Notes: generated by a model from the sequence alone, not told the origin. DNA of 64,000 nucleotides from Vampirovibrionales bacterium (GCA_044358835.1 JBIKNF010000004.1:20047-84046); one strand, 5' to 3'. Shown: positions 59,177 to 64,000, counted from the stretch's first letter. A program made the numbers and translations.

Positions 59177-59276
59177 TCAATGTTCCACGCCCCCTTGGGA
59201 AACTTAAGGGGGCATTTTCAAGATTATGGCTTGACTCTCATCTATGCTTGGCTTACTCTTATACAAGTTCAAGAAT

Positions 59277-59348
59277 GCGTCCATAGCTCAGCGGTAGAGC
59301 AGTCCCCTTTTAAGGGAAAGGTCCTGAGTTCGAATCTCAGTGGACGCA
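59277..59348 (+). tRNA. tRNA-Lys (TTT), CCA not encoded
   Basis: Acceptor GCGTCCA/TGGACGC, D-arm GCTC/GAGC, anticodon loop CTTTTAA and T-arm CTGAG-TTCGAAT-CTCAG. Promoter TTGACT-17-TACTCT at 59231-59259. Confidence 0.96.
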
Positions 59349-59350
59349 TA

Positions 59351-59383
59351 AAAGCCCCACAACTTGCTTGTTGGGGCTTTTTT
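59351..59383 (+). terminator. Intrinsic terminator after tRNA-Lys
   Basis: AAAGCCCCA(C)AAC-TTGCTT-GTTGGGGCTTT plus a T run. Confidence 0.85.
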
Positions 59384-59520
59384 ATACAAGAAAAGGCAAA
59401 CGTCGATTTTCCACCATATAGGGGATGCTTTTCACAAGTCGTTTTGGTATCGTATACTTAATGTACACCTCAAGGCTAGTTGCGACTGCGTTGAGCCTAA
59501 CACAAGGATTGATCTGAGTG

Positions 59521-59970
59521 ATGATGATGATGTCTCTTTCAAACACGACCCTTCGCCCCAGTCGAAGACGCACCCCCCCCGCTCAAGAAAGCCACACCCC
59601 CACCGTGTGGATCGTGGAAGATGAAGCCAAGTGGCAAGACGCCTTTTCACTTCTAGTGGGCATGGCCTTTGCGGGTGCTCACATTCAACAAGCGGATTGT
59701 GCCGAAAAAACGCAAGATTGGTTGACCCTTAGTGCCAAGCAAACGGCCCCCCAGTGGGCGGATGCCGTGTTGATGGATTGGCAGCTCGCCAATGGCGATG
59801 ACGGCTTGGCGTTGGTGAACGCGTGGGTGGAAGCGGGTTTGCCAGCAGAACGAGTGATTATCGTGAGTGGGGCGGATGATGTGCCGTCGCATCCTTACAC
59901 AGTGGTGACCAAATCGCAAGCTGGGGCTTTGCTGGTGCCGACCCTATTGCAACTGGCGAATAAAGTCTAA
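59521..59970 (+). CDS. Stand-alone response-regulator receiver protein
   Basis: VWIVEDE, phospho-acceptor VLMDW, IIVSG and VVTKS. Confidence 0.8.
   Translation: MMMMSLSNTTLRPSRRRTPPAQESHTPTVWIVEDEAKWQDAFSLLVGMAFAGAHIQQADCAEKTQDWLTLSAKQTAPQWADAVLMDWQLANGDDGLALVNAWVEAGLPAERVIIVSGADDVPSHPYTVVTKSQAGALLVPTLLQLANKV
59946..59970. repeat. 25-bp direct repeat, left boundary of the RT islet
   Basis: ATTGCAACTGGCGAATAAAGTCTAA, identical to 61950-61974. Confidence 0.95.
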
Positions 59971-60081
59971 GGTCTCTTTAAGCTGTCCCACTTGTGGGTT
60001 AAGGGGCGGTTAAACCCTAGACTCCGTTTGTGGTATCATAATTCTCTTAGGTTTGTTTTATTTGTGGAGTGTCCTTTTATT

Positions 60082-61905
60082 ATGGTAGATATATTACCTA
60101 TATTTTTAGATGACAAACAGGCTGATTTTTTTACAAACACGGATAAAATCCCACCTTATTTTACGACCAAGTTTTTTTTTGATTTTATCAATAAACAAAA
60201 AAAAATAAACACATTGTTGACAAAAAAGATTAAAGAAACCAAATGCCTTCGATTTACAGCACCCAATAAAAAAACTTCACATAGAAGAGAATTAAAAGTT
60301 CCAAACCCTTATGTATACTTACAATTAGCTCATAAAGTATCAGAACTCTACACAAAGCAACAAGATAAAGACACAGTCCCAAATTTAAAAACAGATAAGC
60401 TCTTGAACCTTCAGTTTGAAAAAGAAAAACCTATCTTAAAAAAACATGACGTAATCAGTTCAAGGTGTTACAAGGATGTTCAAGGCTATTCTTATCATTT
60501 AAAAATAGACATCAGTCAATTTTATCCAAGTATTTACACTCATTCAATACCATGGGCTGTTTTAGGAAAAAAGGATGCAAAGAAAAAGTATAATGATTCG
60601 AGTCTTAAATGTGATCTATATAAGTTAGGGGATGAAATAGACAAATTACTAGAAAAGATGAATAGCAAGCAAACCAAAGGAATACCTGTTGGAGCGACGT
60701 TATTTCATTTTGTGGCAAAGCTAATTACAGACAGAATAGATAAAGAATTTAGTGATTTTATTGAAAAAGGCAAGATAGATTGTGAGTTTAGTCATTATGT
60801 AGATGATTACTACGTATTTTGTCATAGTGAAGCAGATGCAAATCGTCTTCTTTCTGAATTCGGAAACATTTTAAATCGCTATGAATTACATATAAATGCT
60901 AACAAAACCCAAATTACTCATGTTGATGAATGGTCAGTTCTCCCTTTTTGGCGACCCATTATAGAAGAAGTATTAGATGTATTTAATGATTTAAAAAATG
61001 ATGTTCTTTGGTCAAAATTAACCGAAAAAAGACTATTACGCTGTTTTGAAAGAATAAGGCAATTAAGAAAAGGGAAATATAAAGCAGAACAGCATTTAAA
61101 TTATTTCCTTTCATCCTTATTGAGTCTTTTAGAAAAACCTTTATTAGAATATTACGCTATTCTCTTCATGAATTTTTTAATAGAAGTTTCTAAAGATCCT
61201 CTAGAGGTTACTTTAATGTATCCACGACCTTCTTCTCCATTATTTATAAGTCTTTACCTGAGTGTTCATGACTTTCAAACACTTGTAGAGACCTTTATTC
61301 TTCCTTTCATTATGCAATGTATTTCACTAGAACCTTCAACCATTCGATACATAGCGGAGCAAAAAACTGTTAAAATGCTCAAACCTTTCCTTCAGAACAA
61401 TGAAAAGTCTAAGAAAGTAATAAAAGCGACTCTTCAAAAAACGATAGACCGTTATTACACTCAAGAGCTGATGTGGGTATTGTATGTTTTGATTGAATAT
61501 GAGCTATTAGATATTGTTGCTAATGATAAAAATGATCTATACGAGAGACTCAAGGAATATCCTAACTCAATGGTAAAATGTTTAGTTATGGAAATTGAAC
61601 TTGATCCAAATTTTTGTAGTGGTTTTGAAGAAAGTTTATTCGAGAAAACAAAATCGGACTATAAAAAATTTAAAGATGAAGATTGGAAGGATCTATTTAA
61701 AAGTGAAGATTGGCTTTTGTACTTTTTTATGCGAGGCAAGGGACGTGAACAAAATGAGGATTTCACACTCTGCGAAACAGGCATCCCGTTAATAGATAAT
61801 TTTTTCAAAGCGACGACAGGAAACAAAACGTTTTTTGATAAAGAGGCTAAAGTTCTCAAACGAAGCTATTATGACCCACATTTTCAGAATGATGCATCAT
61901 CCTAA
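60082..61905 (+). CDS. Abi/UG-class reverse transcriptase (AbiK-like), 607 aa, probable anti-phage protein
   Basis: RRELKVPNP, DISQFYPSIYTHSIPWA, QTKGIPVG, HYVDDY and INANKT motifs, plus a long helical C-terminal region. Visibly AT-rich; ATG at 60082 after a GGAG SD. Confidence 0.9.
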   Translation: MVDILPIFLDDKQADFFTNTDKIPPYFTTKFFFDFINKQKKINTLLTKKIKETKCLRFTAPNKKTSHRRELKVPNPYVYLQLAHKVSELYTKQQDKDTVPNLKTDKLLNLQFEKEKPILKKHDVISSRCYKDVQGYSYHLKIDISQFYPSIYTHSIPWAVLGKKDAKKKYNDSSLKCDLYKLGDEIDKLLEKMNSKQTKGIPVGATLFHFVAKLITDRIDKEFSDFIEKGKIDCEFSHYVDDYYVFCHSEADANRLLSEFGNILNRYELHINANKTQITHVDEWSVLPFWRPIIEEVLDVFNDLKNDVLWSKLTEKRLLRCFERIRQLRKGKYKAEQHLNYFLSSLLSLLEKPLLEYYAILFMNFLIEVSKDPLEVTLMYPRPSSPLFISLYLSVHDFQTLVETFILPFIMQCISLEPSTIRYIAEQKTVKMLKPFLQNNEKSKKVIKATLQKTIDRYYTQELMWVLYVLIEYELLDIVANDKNDLYERLKEYPNSMVKCLVMEIELDPNFCSGFEESLFEKTKSDYKKFKDEDWKDLFKSEDWLLYFFMRGKGREQNEDFTLCETGIPLIDNFFKATTGNKTFFDKEAKVLKRSYYDPHFQNDASS

Positions 61906-61947
61906 CTAATCTTAATACCTCACCTCCCCCGCACTCCCATGGTAAGC

Positions 61948-63393
61948 TCATTGCAACTGGCGAATAAAGTCTAACGCCTCTTCTTTGCTATGGATGCGTC
62001 CCAAGGCGTGGGCGTCTTTGAGTTGTGCCAAGATCTGCCCTACCCGAGGGCTCGGGGGAATCCCCAACGCCTGCATGATGCTTTCACCGTCCAACAACGG
62101 CGGAGCCTGCCGTTGAGCCTTCCCCTGCCAATAGCGATGCAACAAATCCAGCAAGTCCGCTTGAGCCGTCGCCAAGGCTTCAGTCGTAAAGGCGTGACCC
62201 CGTGTACTTAAGGTATCCGCCAACGCCAGCACGATGAGAAAGGGCGTGTCTTCTGCGATACGCCGAAAAAAGCGGAGCCTGCTTTTTTCACTGCTTTGCT
62301 CGTCAAACGTACAGGGGTACAAATGCCATTCCACCAAGCGACTCACCCGATGCTTCACCGCTTGGCTCAGTTTCCATTCACTCAACAAAGGGCTAAGCAC
62401 GTCGACTCCCTTTTTTTCATGCCCGATGAATCGGTGCCGAAAGTTGGGTTCTACCTGCCATGTGTGCGGTTTGGCAATATCGTGAAACAGGCACGCCATT
62501 TTGACCAAGCCGTATTCGCTCGCCCCATGACTGCTGGGTTGTGTTAAGGCGTTTTGGGTGTGGGCGTCTAAAATAGGGTAAATGAGTTCAGCTTGACGGA
62601 TGAGTTCTAGGCTATGTTCCCACAACGGCAAGTGATGATGCGAATTGGGACTCACCATTTTCAGCGCTTTTAGGGGGGGGAACAACGCTTCTAAAATGCC
62701 AGCATCCGCCATGATTTGCATCGTGGGGAAGGCGTTTTCGGCGGAAAGCAACTTAAACCACTCGACTGCCATGCGTTCTTTGGCGACGCTATGTAAGTAA
62801 GGTAGGCAGGCTTTTGCCCAGTTTAAGGTTTTGGCTTCAATTGTAGTAGGGGTTTGAGCCGTGTTTAAGCTCGCATGAAAGCGAAAGATCCGTAAAATCC
62901 GCAAGGGATCGTCCTTAAGATTCTCAAGGCTCAAGGCTCGAATCACGCCAGCGTCTAAATCCGCTTGCCCCTCGTATAAATCGAGCAATTCACCGCGTTG
63001 CGTATGCACCGCTAGAGTATTGAGGCTTAAATCCCGACGCGCCAAGTCCGCTGTAATATCATCCCCTTGCACCTGAACGACATCCAAAAATAGCGGCGGG
63101 CGTTGCGTGTCTTCATGCAAGAAAACGACCCGATAAATCCCCCACGATTCATCCAACACCACCAACCGTGTATGCGGAACGGCGTCTTGCACGGCGTGAG
63201 CCACCGCTTTGGCGGACGCTCCCACAATACTCACGTCTATATCTTCAAGGGGAAAGGGCTTGTTGAGTAGTGCATCTCGAACGGCACCCCCCACGATGTA
63301 AGCGTCTGCTCCAGCGAAGGCTTTTAGCGCCTCATTTAGGGCGACAATGCGAACATCACTTAAAAGTTGGGCGAAAACATTAGTCGGATTCAT
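61948..63393 (-). CDS. cca: Class II tRNA nucleotidyltransferase with HD domain (probably CC-adding)
   Basis: IVGGAVRDALL, DIDV, DLARRDLSLN, DDPLRILRIFRF, ERMAVEWFKLL and LFHDIAKP. Confidence 0.88.
   Translation of the reverse strand: MNPTNVFAQLLSDVRIVALNEALKAFAGADAYIVGGAVRDALLNKPFPLEDIDVSIVGASAKAVAHAVQDAVPHTRLVVLDESWGIYRVVFLHEDTQRPPLFLDVVQVQGDDITADLARRDLSLNTLAVHTQRGELLDLYEGQADLDAGVIRALSLENLKDDPLRILRIFRFHASLNTAQTPTTIEAKTLNWAKACLPYLHSVAKERMAVEWFKLLSAENAFPTMQIMADAGILEALFPPLKALKMVSPNSHHHLPLWEHSLELIRQAELIYPILDAHTQNALTQPSSHGASEYGLVKMACLFHDIAKPHTWQVEPNFRHRFIGHEKKGVDVLSPLLSEWKLSQAVKHRVSRLVEWHLYPCTFDEQSSEKSRLRFFRRIAEDTPFLIVLALADTLSTRGHAFTTEALATAQADLLDLLHRYWQGKAQRQAPPLLDGESIMQALGIPPSPRVGQILAQLKDAHALGRIHSKEEALDFIRQLQ
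61950..61974. repeat. 25-bp direct repeat, right boundary of the RT islet
   Basis: Identical to 59946-59970; on the minus strand it encodes LDFIRQLQ of the cca-family gene. Confidence 0.95.
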
Positions 63394-64000
63394 GGGATCC
63401 TCCGAGTAGTAAGAGCGTAAGCCCTGCGAGGCTGGCGGTTTCGGCTCGCAAGATGCGGTTGCCTAAGTGACACGGCACCACCTGCGGATGGCTCATCAAC
63501 GCCTCTTTTTCAGCAGGCGACCAACCCCCTTCGGCCCCCACCCACAAACCCACTTGCGAATGGGGATTCATCCCTTGTACGGCGTGGCTTAAGGGCTCGA
63601 CGCTTTCGTTGTGACGTTCCACCAAGGCAACGCTTGCGGAGGGCGTTTGTGCTAAAGCATTTTGAAAGGCAAGCGGTGCGTAAACGTGCGGAATGTAGAG
63701 ACTTTCGCACTGCAGGGCGGCGTCTTTGACGATGCGTTGCCAGCGTTCTTGCTTATTGGTGCCATGCCCCCCCTTGATGACGGTGAACTCACTCAAGATC
63801 GGTTGAATGGCGTAAACCCCCAGTTCGCACGCTTTTTGAAGTACAACATCCCACGCGTGTTCTTTCAGCAGGCTGGCGTAAAGCGTGACCTTTAAGGCAG
63901 GCGTTGTATTAGGCACATCCACCATTTGCACATTTTTTAAGCGGATGCTTTTCTTGTCAATGGCTTCAATTTCGGCGTAAAAAACCTGCTGGTGTTGAGC
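63380..64000 (-). CDS. rsmE: 16S rRNA m3U1498 methyltransferase, 5' end outside the window
   Basis: LQKACELGV, RWQRIVKDAALQC, VGAEGGWS and LGNRILRAETA; the frame is open to the window edge. Confidence 0.93.
   Translation of the reverse strand, partial: AQHQQVFYAEIEAIDKKSIRLKNVQMVDVPNTTPALKVTLYASLLKEHAWDVVLQKACELGVYAIQPILSEFTVIKGGHGTNKQERWQRIVKDAALQCESLYIPHVYAPLAFQNALAQTPSASVALVERHNESVEPLSHAVQGMNPHSQVGLWVGAEGGWSPAEKEALMSHPQVVPCHLGNRILRAETASLAGLTLLLLGGSHESD

What the first reader, a model, noticed from the sequence alone, without database searches (positions are those of the whole stretch)
59944..61974. RT islet integrated into the overlap of two convergent genes, duplicating a 25-bp sequence that codes on both strands
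Seen: ATTGCAACTGGCGAATAAAGTCTAA is exact at 59946-59970 and 61950-61974. On + the left copy ends the response regulator (LQLANKV-TAA). On - the right copy ends the cca-family gene (LDFIRQLQ-TGA). Deleting the 2004-bp insert leaves both genes intact and overlapping by 27 bp, with cca ending at TAG (59944-59946). In the filled allele, islet bases recreate a stop at exactly the same codon. Known: att cores that restore target 3' ends are typical of tyrosine-recombinase elements. Inference: a very small, integrase-less defence cassette using a doubly coding site that cannot drift, 600 bp from tRNA-Lys but not in it. I do not recognise this target type from described systems.
Basis: partly seen in the sequence, partly recalled or inferred. 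Interest (0 to 1): 0.85.

Follow-up and report, generated by a model that had tools for sequence, protein, structure and literature searches.

The report
Defence RT islet splitting two overlapping genes
A single AT-rich anti-phage-type reverse-transcriptase gene sits where two convergent core genes of a Vampirovibrionales bacterium normally overlap by 27 bp; the exact 25-bp repeat is the surviving part of a roughly 100-bp target duplication in a recombination-driven cargo hotspot, not a recombinase attachment site.

Summary
The 25-mer is exact at 59946-59970 and 61950-61974. It ends the receiver-domain gene on + and the cca gene on -. The same filled allele occurs in five independent assemblies.

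Relatives confirm the predicted empty allele: four lineages have the two genes overlapping by 27 bp. At least five other cargoes occupy the same junction.

The att-core reading is not supported.
- The repeat is 94 nt long and imperfect in one RT-bearing relative, at least 64 nt in another, and has 5 mismatches in 27 in a third.
- Three junction types exist, one with no duplication at all.
- There is no integrase in the islet.
- The 27-mer drifts as fast as the rest of cca.

The RT cassette (59996-61949) also lies directly upstream of speB in distant Vampirovibrionales. The window copy still carries a relic of the speB start codon. RT dS is 0.25-0.31 where host cca dS is saturated, so the RT moved horizontally.

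Most likely there was one illegitimate insertion with about 100 nt of cca 3' end duplicated. Deletions then eroded the duplicate, and homologous recombination spread it and replaced its cargo.

The RT is a rare class-1 UG/Abi enzyme (DRT6/DRT4-like). It is a tidy case of moderate interest.

The parts
59276..59349 (+). tRNA-Lys(UUU), upstream neighbour. It is not part of the islet and is not the insertion target.
   Evidence: ARAGORN; Rfam tRNA 70.7 bits.
59518..59970 (+). 150-aa stand-alone receiver-domain-like gene ('RR'), a core flank. Its last 8 codons plus stop lie in the left repeat copy.
   Evidence: ORF. Pfam Response_reg E=4.4e-4, below the gathering score. Orthologues at 80-91% flank the junction in relatives.
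59944..59970 (.). The 27 bp that form the RR/cca overlap (both stop codons included) in the empty allele. 59946-59970 is the left copy of the exact 25-mer.
   Evidence: Empty alleles L008, L010, L034/35 and L037 show the same 27-bp overlap.
59971..59995 (.). Eroded, non-coding relic of the duplicated cca 3' end. It is specific to the RR/cca site and absent from speB-site copies of the cassette.
   Evidence: It aligns to the distal part of the intact 69-nt cca remnant of L041 with 36-nt and 12-nt deletions (4/1000 shuffles reach the score). A direct comparison with the window's own cca is not significant. It is shared almost identically with L029 and L007.
59996..60081 (+). Conserved 5' region of the RT cassette (promoter/5'UTR), with a -10-like TGGTATCATAAT at 60031-60042. 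In L041 the same position reads TGGTATAAT.
   Evidence: 87% nt identity with the speB-site copy L027 starting at 59996. The promoter assignment is an inference; the consensus scan did not call it. No Rfam family matched.
60082..61905 (+). 607-aa reverse transcriptase of the class-1 UG/Abi group (closest to DRT6/UG12 and DRT4/UG15). Catalytic YVDD is intact. The C-terminal half is all-helical.
   Evidence: Pfam RVT_1 8e-16. PADLOC Drt6 2e-72, Drt4 1e-57, AbiK 9e-42. PDB sequence hits to DRT6, UG15, Abi-P2 and AbiK. AF2 model pLDDT 68, with full-length Foldseek matches to DRT4, UG15, DRT6 (TMt 0.73), AbiK and Abi-P2. D241 and D242 are invariant.
61906..61949 (+). 3' region of the cassette. It ends in ATGGTAAGCTC (61939-61949), a relic of the start of the agmatinase/arginase gene (speB) that follows the RT at its other genomic site. 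Bases 61948-61949 supply two bases of the cca TGA stop.
   Evidence: Alignment with L026, L027 and L028, where ...cactcccATGGCAAATTTAGAAGC... is the speB start (MANLEAPQG).
61950..61974 (.). Right copy of the exact 25-mer. It encodes the last 8 codons of cca on the minus strand.
61948..63393 (-). cca-family tRNA nucleotidyltransferase / poly(A) polymerase with an HD domain, a core flank. It overlaps the upstream rsmE-like methyltransferase gene (63380-63931, minus strand) by 14 nt.
   Evidence: Pfam PolyA_pol, PolyA_pol_RNAbd and HD. NCBIfam CCA models match below their cut-offs. Orthologues at 85-94% identity.

Best explanation
The RR/cca junction of this Vampirovibrionales genus is a small cargo hotspot flanked by core genes. 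The RT islet is a non-autonomous passenger in it, not a site-specific element.

Ancestral state (shown): the two convergent genes overlap by 27 bp.

Founding event (inferred): an AT-rich cassette was inserted into the overlap by illegitimate, microhomology-assisted recombination. The cassette comprised about 90 bp of upstream region, the RT gene, its 3'UTR and the first ~12 nt of the downstream speB gene, taken from an RT-speB module seen in distant Vampirovibrionales. One junction lies in an 11/13 match between cca (GAGGGCTCGGGGG) and the cassette (GGGGGCTAGGGGG). About 95-105 nt of the cca 3' end, including the 27-bp overlap, was duplicated, so both genes kept intact 3' ends.

Afterwards (shown by comparison): the non-coding part of the duplicate next to RR was eroded by lineage-specific deletions. 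It is intact over 94 nt in L041, carries a 39-nt deletion in L012, and carries 36-nt and 12-nt deletions in the window, L029 and L007. Only the stretch that codes for a gene end in each copy stays conserved. In the window that stretch is the exact 25-mer.

Spread (inferred): the filled allele moved between lineages by homologous recombination through the conserved flanks. Its interior was repeatedly replaced by other AT-rich cargo. Precise loss through the repeats may regenerate empty alleles. At least one further independent insertion into the same overlap (type B) rewrote both C-termini instead of duplicating them. A third junction type (L038, type C) cannot be judged because its contig ends before RR.

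Function of the cargo (inferred from homology): a single-gene abortive-infection-type defence RT. Like DRT6, DRT4 and AbiK, it would make protein-primed, untemplated ssDNA that becomes toxic when a phage protein protects it from host exonucleases.
For: - Empty alleles with the 27-bp overlap occur in four lineages, including the basal one in the cca tree.
- Alternative cargo at the same junction: two small ORFs (L007), a P-loop NTPase (L012), a TPR protein (L011), a 275-aa protein (L032), an HNH-nuclease protein (L038) and a rearranged allele (L009).
- These cargoes are unrelated to each other except at their arms, and all are 31-42% GC.
- Cargo state is scattered over the cca tree. RT, type B and empty alleles each appear in both main clades.
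- Long duplication: L041 has a chromosomal 94-nt direct repeat (82/94 identical, 34-nt exact island) flanking the same RT. The L012 arm is a cca 3' remnant that spans the proposed junction (0/2000 shuffles reach the score). The window arm matches the L041 remnant with two deletions (4/1000).
- The repeat copies are not identical elsewhere: L029 5 of 27, L041 3 of 25, L007 1, L012 3 plus the stop.
- Cassette origin: the same cassette lies upstream of speB in L026, L027 and L028. Homology to the window runs from 59996 to about 61927 and ends in the speB ATG relic.
- RT dS to those copies is 0.25-0.31 while host cca dS is above 2. RT dS within the genus is 0.16-0.27 against cca 0.53.
- RT family. 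DRT4/DRT6 mechanism from PMC12783706.
- Core-gene-flanked hotspots without mobile-element markers are a described phenomenon (PMC10250203).
Against: - The founding mechanism is inferred from junction anatomy only. A ~100-nt target duplication is not a classic signature of simple illegitimate recombination.
- The window's own 25-nt arm is too eroded to be shown cca-derived on its own (p about 0.1-0.17). The link goes through L041 and L012.
- The L041 remnant is undecayed. Its differences from the window's cca in the distal 28 nt are all synonymous (4 of 4). That fits a recent duplication or gene conversion better than an old single event.
- In the window and in L007 the two copies share lineage-specific variants. 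This needs gene conversion or donor-derived copies.
- Repeated use of one 27-bp region by at least two, possibly three, insertion events hints at some targeting that the model does not explain.
- No experiment supports a defence function for this RT. It scores below NCBIfam's DRT4 cut-off (142.6 vs 450 bits).
Confidence: 0.6

Rival explanations
1. First reader's model. The islet is a small integrative element mobilised in trans by a tyrosine (or serine) recombinase encoded elsewhere. The 25-mer is the att core that restores both target 3' ends.
For: - An exact 25-bp direct repeat flanks foreign DNA, and the empty site exists.
- Several cargoes occupy the same junction.
- A truncated large-serine-recombinase fragment lies next to the RT cassette in L027/L028.
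- Elements that carry the target gene's 3' end in attP are well known for tRNA-targeting islands (background knowledge).
Against: - There is no recombinase in any allele of the islet.
- A crude motif screen of the 64-kb window found none.
- Repeat length and identity vary widely between lineages (25 exact, 27 with 5 mismatches, 94 with 12 mismatches).
- Junction positions differ between types A, B and C, and type B has no repeat.
- The cassette at the speB site has no 25-mer and no flanking repeat.
- The 25-mer family is absent from 2.9 million viral contigs except for chance hits.
Confidence: 0.12
2. Campbell-type mobility without an integrase. The islet plus one copy of the ~94-nt RR/cca junction segment excises as a circle by RecA recombination between the long repeats. 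It re-enters empty sites of related strains by a single homologous crossover, which regenerates long repeats each time.
For: - L041 has a 94-nt repeat whose RR-side copy is an undecayed, in-frame cca allele different from the resident cca. This is as expected after recent entry from another strain.
- Logan contig L036 closes on itself as 2047 bp.
- Empty alleles are scattered in the tree.
Against: - The self-closing contig is explained by the 34-nt exact island inside the chromosomal repeat. L041 is 100% identical over all 2077 nt and carries both chromosomal flanks.
- In the window, L029 and L007 only 25-33 nt of repeat remain. That is too short for efficient RecA recombination, so this route cannot apply to the allele in the window.
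- It does not explain how the first circle arose.
Confidence: 0.15
3. The RT mobilises its own gene by reverse transcription of its mRNA and insertion of the cDNA, so the repeat is a retrotransposition-type target duplication.
For: The cargo is an RT with intact catalytic motifs. The cassette is found at two unrelated sites and has moved between distant lineages.
Against: - The conserved cassette includes about 45 nt upstream of the -10-like box, meaning promoter DNA that an mRNA would lack.
- No group II intron or retron RNA is detected. The NCBIfam group II score is 45.9 against a 300-bit cut-off.
- The fold and HMM matches are to protein-primed, template-independent Abi/DRT polymerases (PMC12783706).
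- Other cargoes at the site have no RT.
Confidence: 0.03
4. The repeat is an assembly or chimera artefact.
For: None beyond the general risk with metagenome contigs. One related contig (L036) does show a graph-cycle artefact.
Against: Five independent assemblies from different samples and assemblers give the identical structure. Diverged orthologous copies exist (L029-31, L041, L042).
Confidence: 0.01

Closest known systems
Core-gene-flanked defence hotspots (e.g. cDHS1 of Pseudomonas aeruginosa, PMC10250203) and the 'minimal mobile elements' of Neisseria (recalled from Saunders & Snyder 2002; mentioned in PMC3787668)
   Same: - Two conserved chromosomal genes bracket a slot.
- The slot holds unrelated, low-GC cassettes in different strains, or is empty.
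- The cassettes carry no mobility genes.
- Cargo distribution is incongruent with the flank phylogeny, as expected for exchange by homologous recombination.
   Different: - There is no intergenic slot here. In the empty state the two flanking genes overlap by 27 bp.
- Every filled allele therefore had to duplicate the overlap (type A) or rewrite both C-termini (type B).
- Cargo is tiny: one or two genes, 1-2 kb.
- Only some cargoes look defence-related.
DRT6 (UG12) and DRT4 (UG15), class-1 UG/Abi reverse transcriptases, with AbiK and Abi-P2
   Same: - Single-gene system of about 500-600 aa.
- RT palm with YVDD followed by an all-helical C-terminal domain.
- The best HMM is Drt6.
- The best structural matches are full-length to DRT4, UG15, DRT6, AbiK and Abi-P2.
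- No associated ncRNA was detected.
   Different: - Only about 18-20% identity to the solved members.
- Below NCBIfam's DRT4 equivalog cut-off.
- The Drt6 HMM covers only the N-terminal 350 residues.
- The sub-lineage is very rare (8 cluster representatives at E<=1e-30 among 1.84 billion) and so far confined to Vampirovibrionales.
- Activity and defence are untested.
Genomic islands that integrate into the 3' end of a gene (classically tRNA/tmRNA) and carry a replacement 3' end in attP
   Same: Foreign DNA is flanked by a direct repeat that is the 3' end of the target gene. The target gene stays intact, and a displaced remnant copy sits at the far end.
   Different: - There is no integrase.
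- Repeat length and identity are not fixed.
- Junctions differ between cargo types.
- The repeat restores two genes on opposite strands.
- The far-end remnant decays by deletion except where it codes for the second gene.

Membership tests
Class-1 UG/Abi defence reverse transcriptases (AbiK / Abi-P2 / DRT4 / DRT6) | RT palm domain with catalytic YxDD and conserved motif A aspartate | tested here: met
   Pfam RVT_1 58.8 bits against a 29.6 cut-off. YVDD is present with D241 and D242 invariant, and D143 is invariant across 14 homologues.
Class-1 UG/Abi defence reverse transcriptases (AbiK / Abi-P2 / DRT4 / DRT6) | Family HMM match to a named DRT/Abi group | tested here: inconclusive
   PADLOC Drt6 2.1e-72 (protein residues 22-347 only), Drt4 1e-57, UG30 4e-54, AbiK 9e-42. 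NCBIfam Drt4 scores 142.6 bits, below the 450-bit equivalog cut-off. The protein belongs to the class but not clearly to one named type.
Class-1 UG/Abi defence reverse transcriptases (AbiK / Abi-P2 / DRT4 / DRT6) | C-terminal all-helical (alpha-repeat) domain fused to the RT, with a full-length fold like the solved members | tested here: met
   The AF2 model has helices from residue 290 to 556 (pLDDT 68, so moderate confidence). Foldseek matches over 550-600 columns: DRT4 9vdo E=7e-16, UG15 9l9s, DRT6 9wy8 TMt 0.73, AbiK and Abi-P2.
Class-1 UG/Abi defence reverse transcriptases (AbiK / Abi-P2 / DRT4 / DRT6) | Stand-alone gene without a partner effector or ncRNA | tested here: met
   It is the only ORF of 70 aa or more in the islet. 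There is no Rfam match in 59200-62100 apart from the tRNA. An undescribed ncRNA in the conserved 86-nt leader cannot be excluded.
Class-1 UG/Abi defence reverse transcriptases (AbiK / Abi-P2 / DRT4 / DRT6) | Protein-primed, template-independent DNA synthesis and abortive-infection phage defence | not testable with these tools
   Known for DRT4 and DRT6 (PMC12783706). The N-terminal 43 residues, where a priming tyrosine would lie, are modelled at pLDDT below 50.
Site-specific integrative element (tyrosine/serine recombinase, att core repeat) | Recombinase gene in the element or demonstrably acting on it | tested here: not met
   The islet has a single ORF, the RT. None of the alternative cargoes is a recombinase. 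A motif screen of the window was negative, though crude.
Site-specific integrative element (tyrosine/serine recombinase, att core repeat) | A fixed core sequence, identical at both ends, in independent occurrences | tested here: not met
   Window 25/25, L007 26/27, L012 23/27, L029 22/27. L041 has 94 nt at 82/94. Type B alleles have no repeat.
Site-specific integrative element (tyrosine/serine recombinase, att core repeat) | Same crossover point for different cargo | tested here: not met
   Three junction types were found: at the cca stop (A), inside the overlap (B), and 8 nt beyond the stop (C, L038).
Site-specific integrative element (tyrosine/serine recombinase, att core repeat) | Excised circular form / attP | tested here: inconclusive
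   Contig L036 closes as a 2047-bp circle. This is explained by a 34-nt exact island in the chromosomal repeat of the identical L041. No reads were available.
Core-gene-flanked cargo hotspot / minimal mobile element | Conserved flanking genes with empty and variously filled alleles among related strains | tested here: met
   Four lineages are empty, four carry the RT, and at least five carry other cargoes, among about 14 lineages with 85-94% cca identity.
Core-gene-flanked cargo hotspot / minimal mobile element | Cargo state incongruent with flank phylogeny, and arms shared between different cargoes | tested here: met
   NJ tree of cca. L007 keeps at least 44 nt of the RT cassette's 5' arm (93% by blastn; homology by eye to ~75 nt), and L011 and L032 share 40-nt arms.
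Core-gene-flanked cargo hotspot / minimal mobile element | Transfer by uptake plus homologous recombination | not testable with these tools
   Inferred only. RT dS (0.16-0.27) is lower than cca dS (0.53) within the genus.
Group II intron / retron | Intron or msr/msd RNA and the matching RT subfamily | tested here: not met
   No Rfam hit. NCBIfam group II RT scores 45.9 against 300 bits, and retron RT 31.2 against 235 bits.

The most novel reading that the evidence does not exclude
The overlap of the two convergent stop regions may itself be a preferred landing site. For example, transcription collision or replication-transcription conflict could cause recurrent breaks there, and these could be repaired by capture of foreign AT-rich DNA with template switching. 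At least two insertions with different junctions (types A and B), possibly a third (type C), hit the same 27-35 bp in one genus, and one of them came with a ~100-nt duplication. That would make overlapping convergent gene ends a previously unrecognised class of integrase-independent insertion hotspot for defence genes in small genomes.
Probability: 0.15. Interest if true: 0.65.

Novelty: new variant of a known kind. Interest (0 to 1): 0.4.

Why it matters
The case shows how a compact genome with no intergenic space at a convergent gene pair can still host exchangeable accessory genes. It does so by duplicating or rewriting the shared gene ends.

It is also a caution for annotation. An exact short direct repeat around foreign DNA looks like an att site. 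Here it is the selectively retained core of a longer, decaying duplication.

It adds a rare, horizontally moving sub-lineage of class-1 UG/Abi reverse transcriptases in Vampirovibrionales, a predatory group within the Cyanobacteriota (a non-photosynthetic lineage; background knowledge) whose defence repertoire, to my knowledge, has been little studied. It also gives a testable 2-kb defence candidate with its native promoter.

Tried and rejected
- The metagenome-contig scan with the cca C-terminus returned one truncated close relative and distant homologues only. It gave no new alleles.
- The degenerate 25-mer scan of viral contigs gave two hits. Both are chance matches inside an unrelated Zn-ribbon gene, with no RR, RT or cca nearby.
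- The Rfam scan of the islet and flanks found only the tRNA.
- The promoter/terminator consensus scan was not enriched over shuffles.
- RT against phage genomes gave only distant Abi-P2-like hits below 40% identity.
- I first read the window's arm (59971-59997) as a cca remnant by eye. Direct alignment to cca was not significant, so the claim now rests on L041 and L012.
- I considered contig L036 as evidence for a 2047-bp excised circle. I rejected it after L041 showed the same sequence with chromosomal flanks and a 34-nt exact island that explains the graph cycle.
- An automatic MAFFT alignment of the arms was uninformative. It was replaced by pairwise alignments with cheap gap extension.
- A regex screen for recombinase motifs in the window found nothing, but it is weak evidence.
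- No direct repeats flank the cassette at the speB site.

Full report
**1. The observation**

The 25-mer ATTGCAACTGGCGAATAAAGTCTAA occurs exactly twice in the window, at 59946-59970 and 61950-61974. No further match appears at up to three mismatches, and none is expected by chance. The repeat extends to 33 nt with two mismatches.

The left copy closes a 150-aa ORF (59518-59970, +) with a weak receiver-domain match. The right copy closes, on the minus strand, a 481-aa cca-family nucleotidyltransferase with an HD domain (61948-63393). The 1.98 kb between the copies is about 30% GC against 47-55% outside. It holds one ORF of note, a 607-aa reverse transcriptase (60082-61905).

The identical filled allele is present in five independent assemblies from different samples. 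It is not an artefact.

**2. Relatives: empty sites and other cargo**

The organism is a Vampirovibrionales MAG lineage. I collected about 14 lineages with 85-94% cca identity from a genome scan, a homologue search and contig look-ups. The junction takes four forms.

- **Empty.** RR and cca overlap by exactly 27 bp, and cca stops at TAG or TAA where predicted. This is seen in L008, L010, L034/35 and L037. L034 is basal in a cca NJ tree.
- **Type A.** cca is intact, followed by a short relic (gcttaccatgg...), cargo, an arm, a second copy of the overlap, and RR.
  - RT cargo: the window, L029-31, L036/L041 and L042.
  - Other cargo: two small ORFs (L007), a 519-aa P-loop NTPase with weak KAP/STAND-like hits (L012), and a rearranged allele (L009).
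- **Type B.** There is no duplication. The last 8 residues of cca and the last 2-3 of RR are rewritten, with a hairpin plus T-run behind RR. Cargo is a 648-aa TPR protein (L011) or a 275-aa protein (L032/33).
- **Type C.** In L038, the closest relative (94%), the junction lies 8 nt beyond the cca stop. The cargo ends in an HNH nuclease domain.

The cargoes are unrelated to each other except at their arms, and all are AT-rich. RT, type B and empty states each occur in both main clades of the cca tree. More distant Vampirovibrionales have no RR next to cca.

Its prediction of alternative cargo is fulfilled.

**3. The repeat is not a fixed core**

In L029 the two copies differ at 5 of 27 positions. 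In L012 they differ at 3 plus the stop, and in L007 at 1.

L041 is a JGI contig with both chromosomal flanks. There the repeat is 94 nt long: 82/94 identical overall, 66/70 in the proximal part, with a 34-nt exact island and 2047 bp spacing. The RR-side copy is an in-frame, undecayed cca C-terminus.

In L012 the RR-side arm is a clear cca 3' remnant with a 39-nt internal deletion (0/2000 shuffles reach the score).

The window's arm (59971-59995), shared with L029 and L007, is too eroded to match cca directly (p about 0.1-0.17). It does align to the distal part of the L041 remnant once 36-nt and 12-nt deletions are allowed (4/1000 shuffles).

The exact 25-mer of the window is thus the part of a ~95-105-nt duplication that still encodes a gene end in both copies. 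The rest has been deleted.

The 27-mer is not frozen either. Among empty alleles it is about 74-89% identical, like the rest of cca.

**4. Where the cassette came from**

Only four close RT homologues exist (81-88% identity), all in Vampirovibrionales. The next best is at 35-40% identity.

Two of them are in lineages whose cca is only 58-61% identical to the window's. One of these is the complete Vampirovibrio genome CP050876. In both, the RT lies directly upstream of an agmatinase/arginase gene (speB).

Nucleotide homology to the window runs from 59996 to about 61927 (87%). It continues to 61949 as ...cactcccATGGTAAGCTC. In the speB-site copies this sequence is the speB start, ATGGCAAATTTA... 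(MANLEAPQG). The window's cassette therefore carries a relic of speB's first codons. This points to an RT-speB module as the source.

RT and speB form one 2.75-kb block at 84% nt identity between two hosts whose cca genes are 61% identical.

| Comparison | RT dS | cca dS |
|---|---|---|
| Window vs speB-site copies | 0.25-0.31 | above 2 |
| Within the genus | 0.16-0.27 | 0.53 |

The RT has moved horizontally and recently relative to host divergence. It stays at 31% GC everywhere.

At the RR-side junction, cca (GAGGGCTCGGGGG) and the cassette's upstream end (GGGGGCTAGGGGG) share 11 of 13 bases. The L012 arm runs straight across this point.

**5. Mechanism**

The most economical reading has six steps.

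1. The ancestor had overlapping genes.
2. One illegitimate, microhomology-assisted insertion of an RT(-speB') fragment occurred, with about 100 nt of target duplicated. This preserved both ORFs.
3. The non-coding duplicate was eroded by deletions. L042 shows the same process on the cca side, where a ~14-nt deletion removed the relic and again left a stop codon.
4. The filled allele spread horizontally by recombination through the conserved flanks.
5. The interior was replaced by other cargo, leaving the arms behind. L007 keeps at least 44 nt of the RT leader (93% by blastn; homology is visible by eye to about 75 nt).
6. At least one independent insertion (type B) hit the same overlap; type C (L038) may be another.

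Steps 1, 3 and the arm sharing are shown by comparison. Steps 2 and 4 are inferred.

A site-specific recombinase acting in trans is disfavoured for four reasons. The repeats vary in length and identity. Three junction types exist. The 25-mer is absent at the speB site. There is no recombinase or viral carrier.

A Campbell-type route through the long repeats is possible for L041-like alleles, but not for the window's 25-33 nt. The apparent 2047-bp circle (L036) is a graph cycle explained by L041.

Recurrent use of one 27-35-bp region remains only partly explained by permissiveness and selection.

**6. The cargo**

- The RT has an intact YVDD (D241 and D242 invariant).
- Its best PADLOC model is Drt6/UG12 (2e-72), followed by Drt4, UG30 and AbiK.
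- Its PDB sequence hits are DRT6 (9wy8), UG15/DRT4, Abi-P2 and AbiK.
- The AF2 model has moderate confidence (pLDDT 68, pTM 0.68). Its RT domain plus all-helical C-terminal half match DRT4, UG15, DRT6 (TMt 0.73), AbiK and Abi-P2 over nearly full length.
- It falls below NCBIfam's DRT4 cut-off.
- It belongs to a very small sub-lineage: 8 representatives at E<=1e-30 among 1.84 billion.

DRT4 and DRT6 make protein-primed, untemplated ssDNA and act by abortive infection when a phage SSB-like protein shields the product from host exonuclease (PMC12783706). By homology I infer the same for this RT. That inference is untested.

**7. Comparison with what is known, and verdict**

In behaviour the locus is closest to two described systems. 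One is core-gene-flanked defence hotspots without mobile-element markers (PMC10250203). The other is the 'minimal mobile elements' of Neisseria (recalled from memory; mentioned in PMC3787668).

It differs in that the slot is a gene overlap. Filling it requires duplication or rewriting of both 3' ends.

It resembles tRNA-type integrative islands only in having a target-3'-end repeat. The defining features of such elements were tested and not met.

I rate it a new variant of a known kind. Interest is moderate (0.4).

Noticed in passing
L026:7986-10733 and L027:3038-5770 (also L028): RT and the downstream agmatinase/arginase gene (speB) form one 2.75-kb block at 84% nt identity in two Vampirovibrionales whose cca genes are only about 61% identical at the nucleotide level. 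The RT-speB pair seems to travel together. In CP050876 it sits between speE and an HTH gene.
   Followed up: partly
L027:1982-2629 (minus strand): A 215-aa ORF begins with the zinc-ribbon domain of a large serine recombinase and lacks the catalytic N-terminus. It lies about 425 bp upstream of the RT cassette and may be a remnant of the vehicle that once carried the RT.
   Followed up: no
L036 (whole contig, 2077 nt) and L041:285-2425: A Logan contig has identical first and last 30 nt, so it looks like a 2047-bp circle. It is in fact produced by a 34-nt exact island inside a 94-nt imperfect chromosomal direct repeat. This is a reminder that self-closing short contigs can be repeat artefacts.
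   Followed up: yes
L009:7447-8624: The insert of this rearranged allele contains several 25-32-nt sequences repeated in direct and inverted orientation (REP/MITE-like). RR is missing, and an NFACT/RqcH-like gene follows.
   Followed up: no
L011:7455-9401: The 648-aa TPR cargo protein contains internal tandem repeats at the DNA level, with units of about 200 nt at 76-85% identity.
   Followed up: no
L008:7423-7875: The RR orthologue of this empty allele is only 46% identical in protein to the window's RR. Yet its last ~90 nt are nearly identical to those of the other lineages. This suggests a recombination breakpoint or frameshift inside RR. The MAG is labelled Gammaproteobacteria, probably a binning error.
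   Followed up: no
window 59518-59535: The RR ORF as listed begins GTG followed by ATG ATG ATG ATG (translated MMMMMS), and the N-terminal 30 residues are low-complexity and rich in basic residues and proline. The true start and the function of this stand-alone receiver-like protein are unclear.
   Followed up: no
window 63380-63393: cca and the upstream rsmE-like 16S rRNA methyltransferase gene overlap by 14 nt on the minus strand. cca is therefore probably the last gene of an operon that runs into the insertion site.
   Followed up: no
window 59350-59385: A hairpin plus T-run (aaaagccccacaacttgcttgttggggctttttt) follows tRNA-Lys directly. It looks like a terminator, but the simple scan did not list it.
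   Followed up: no
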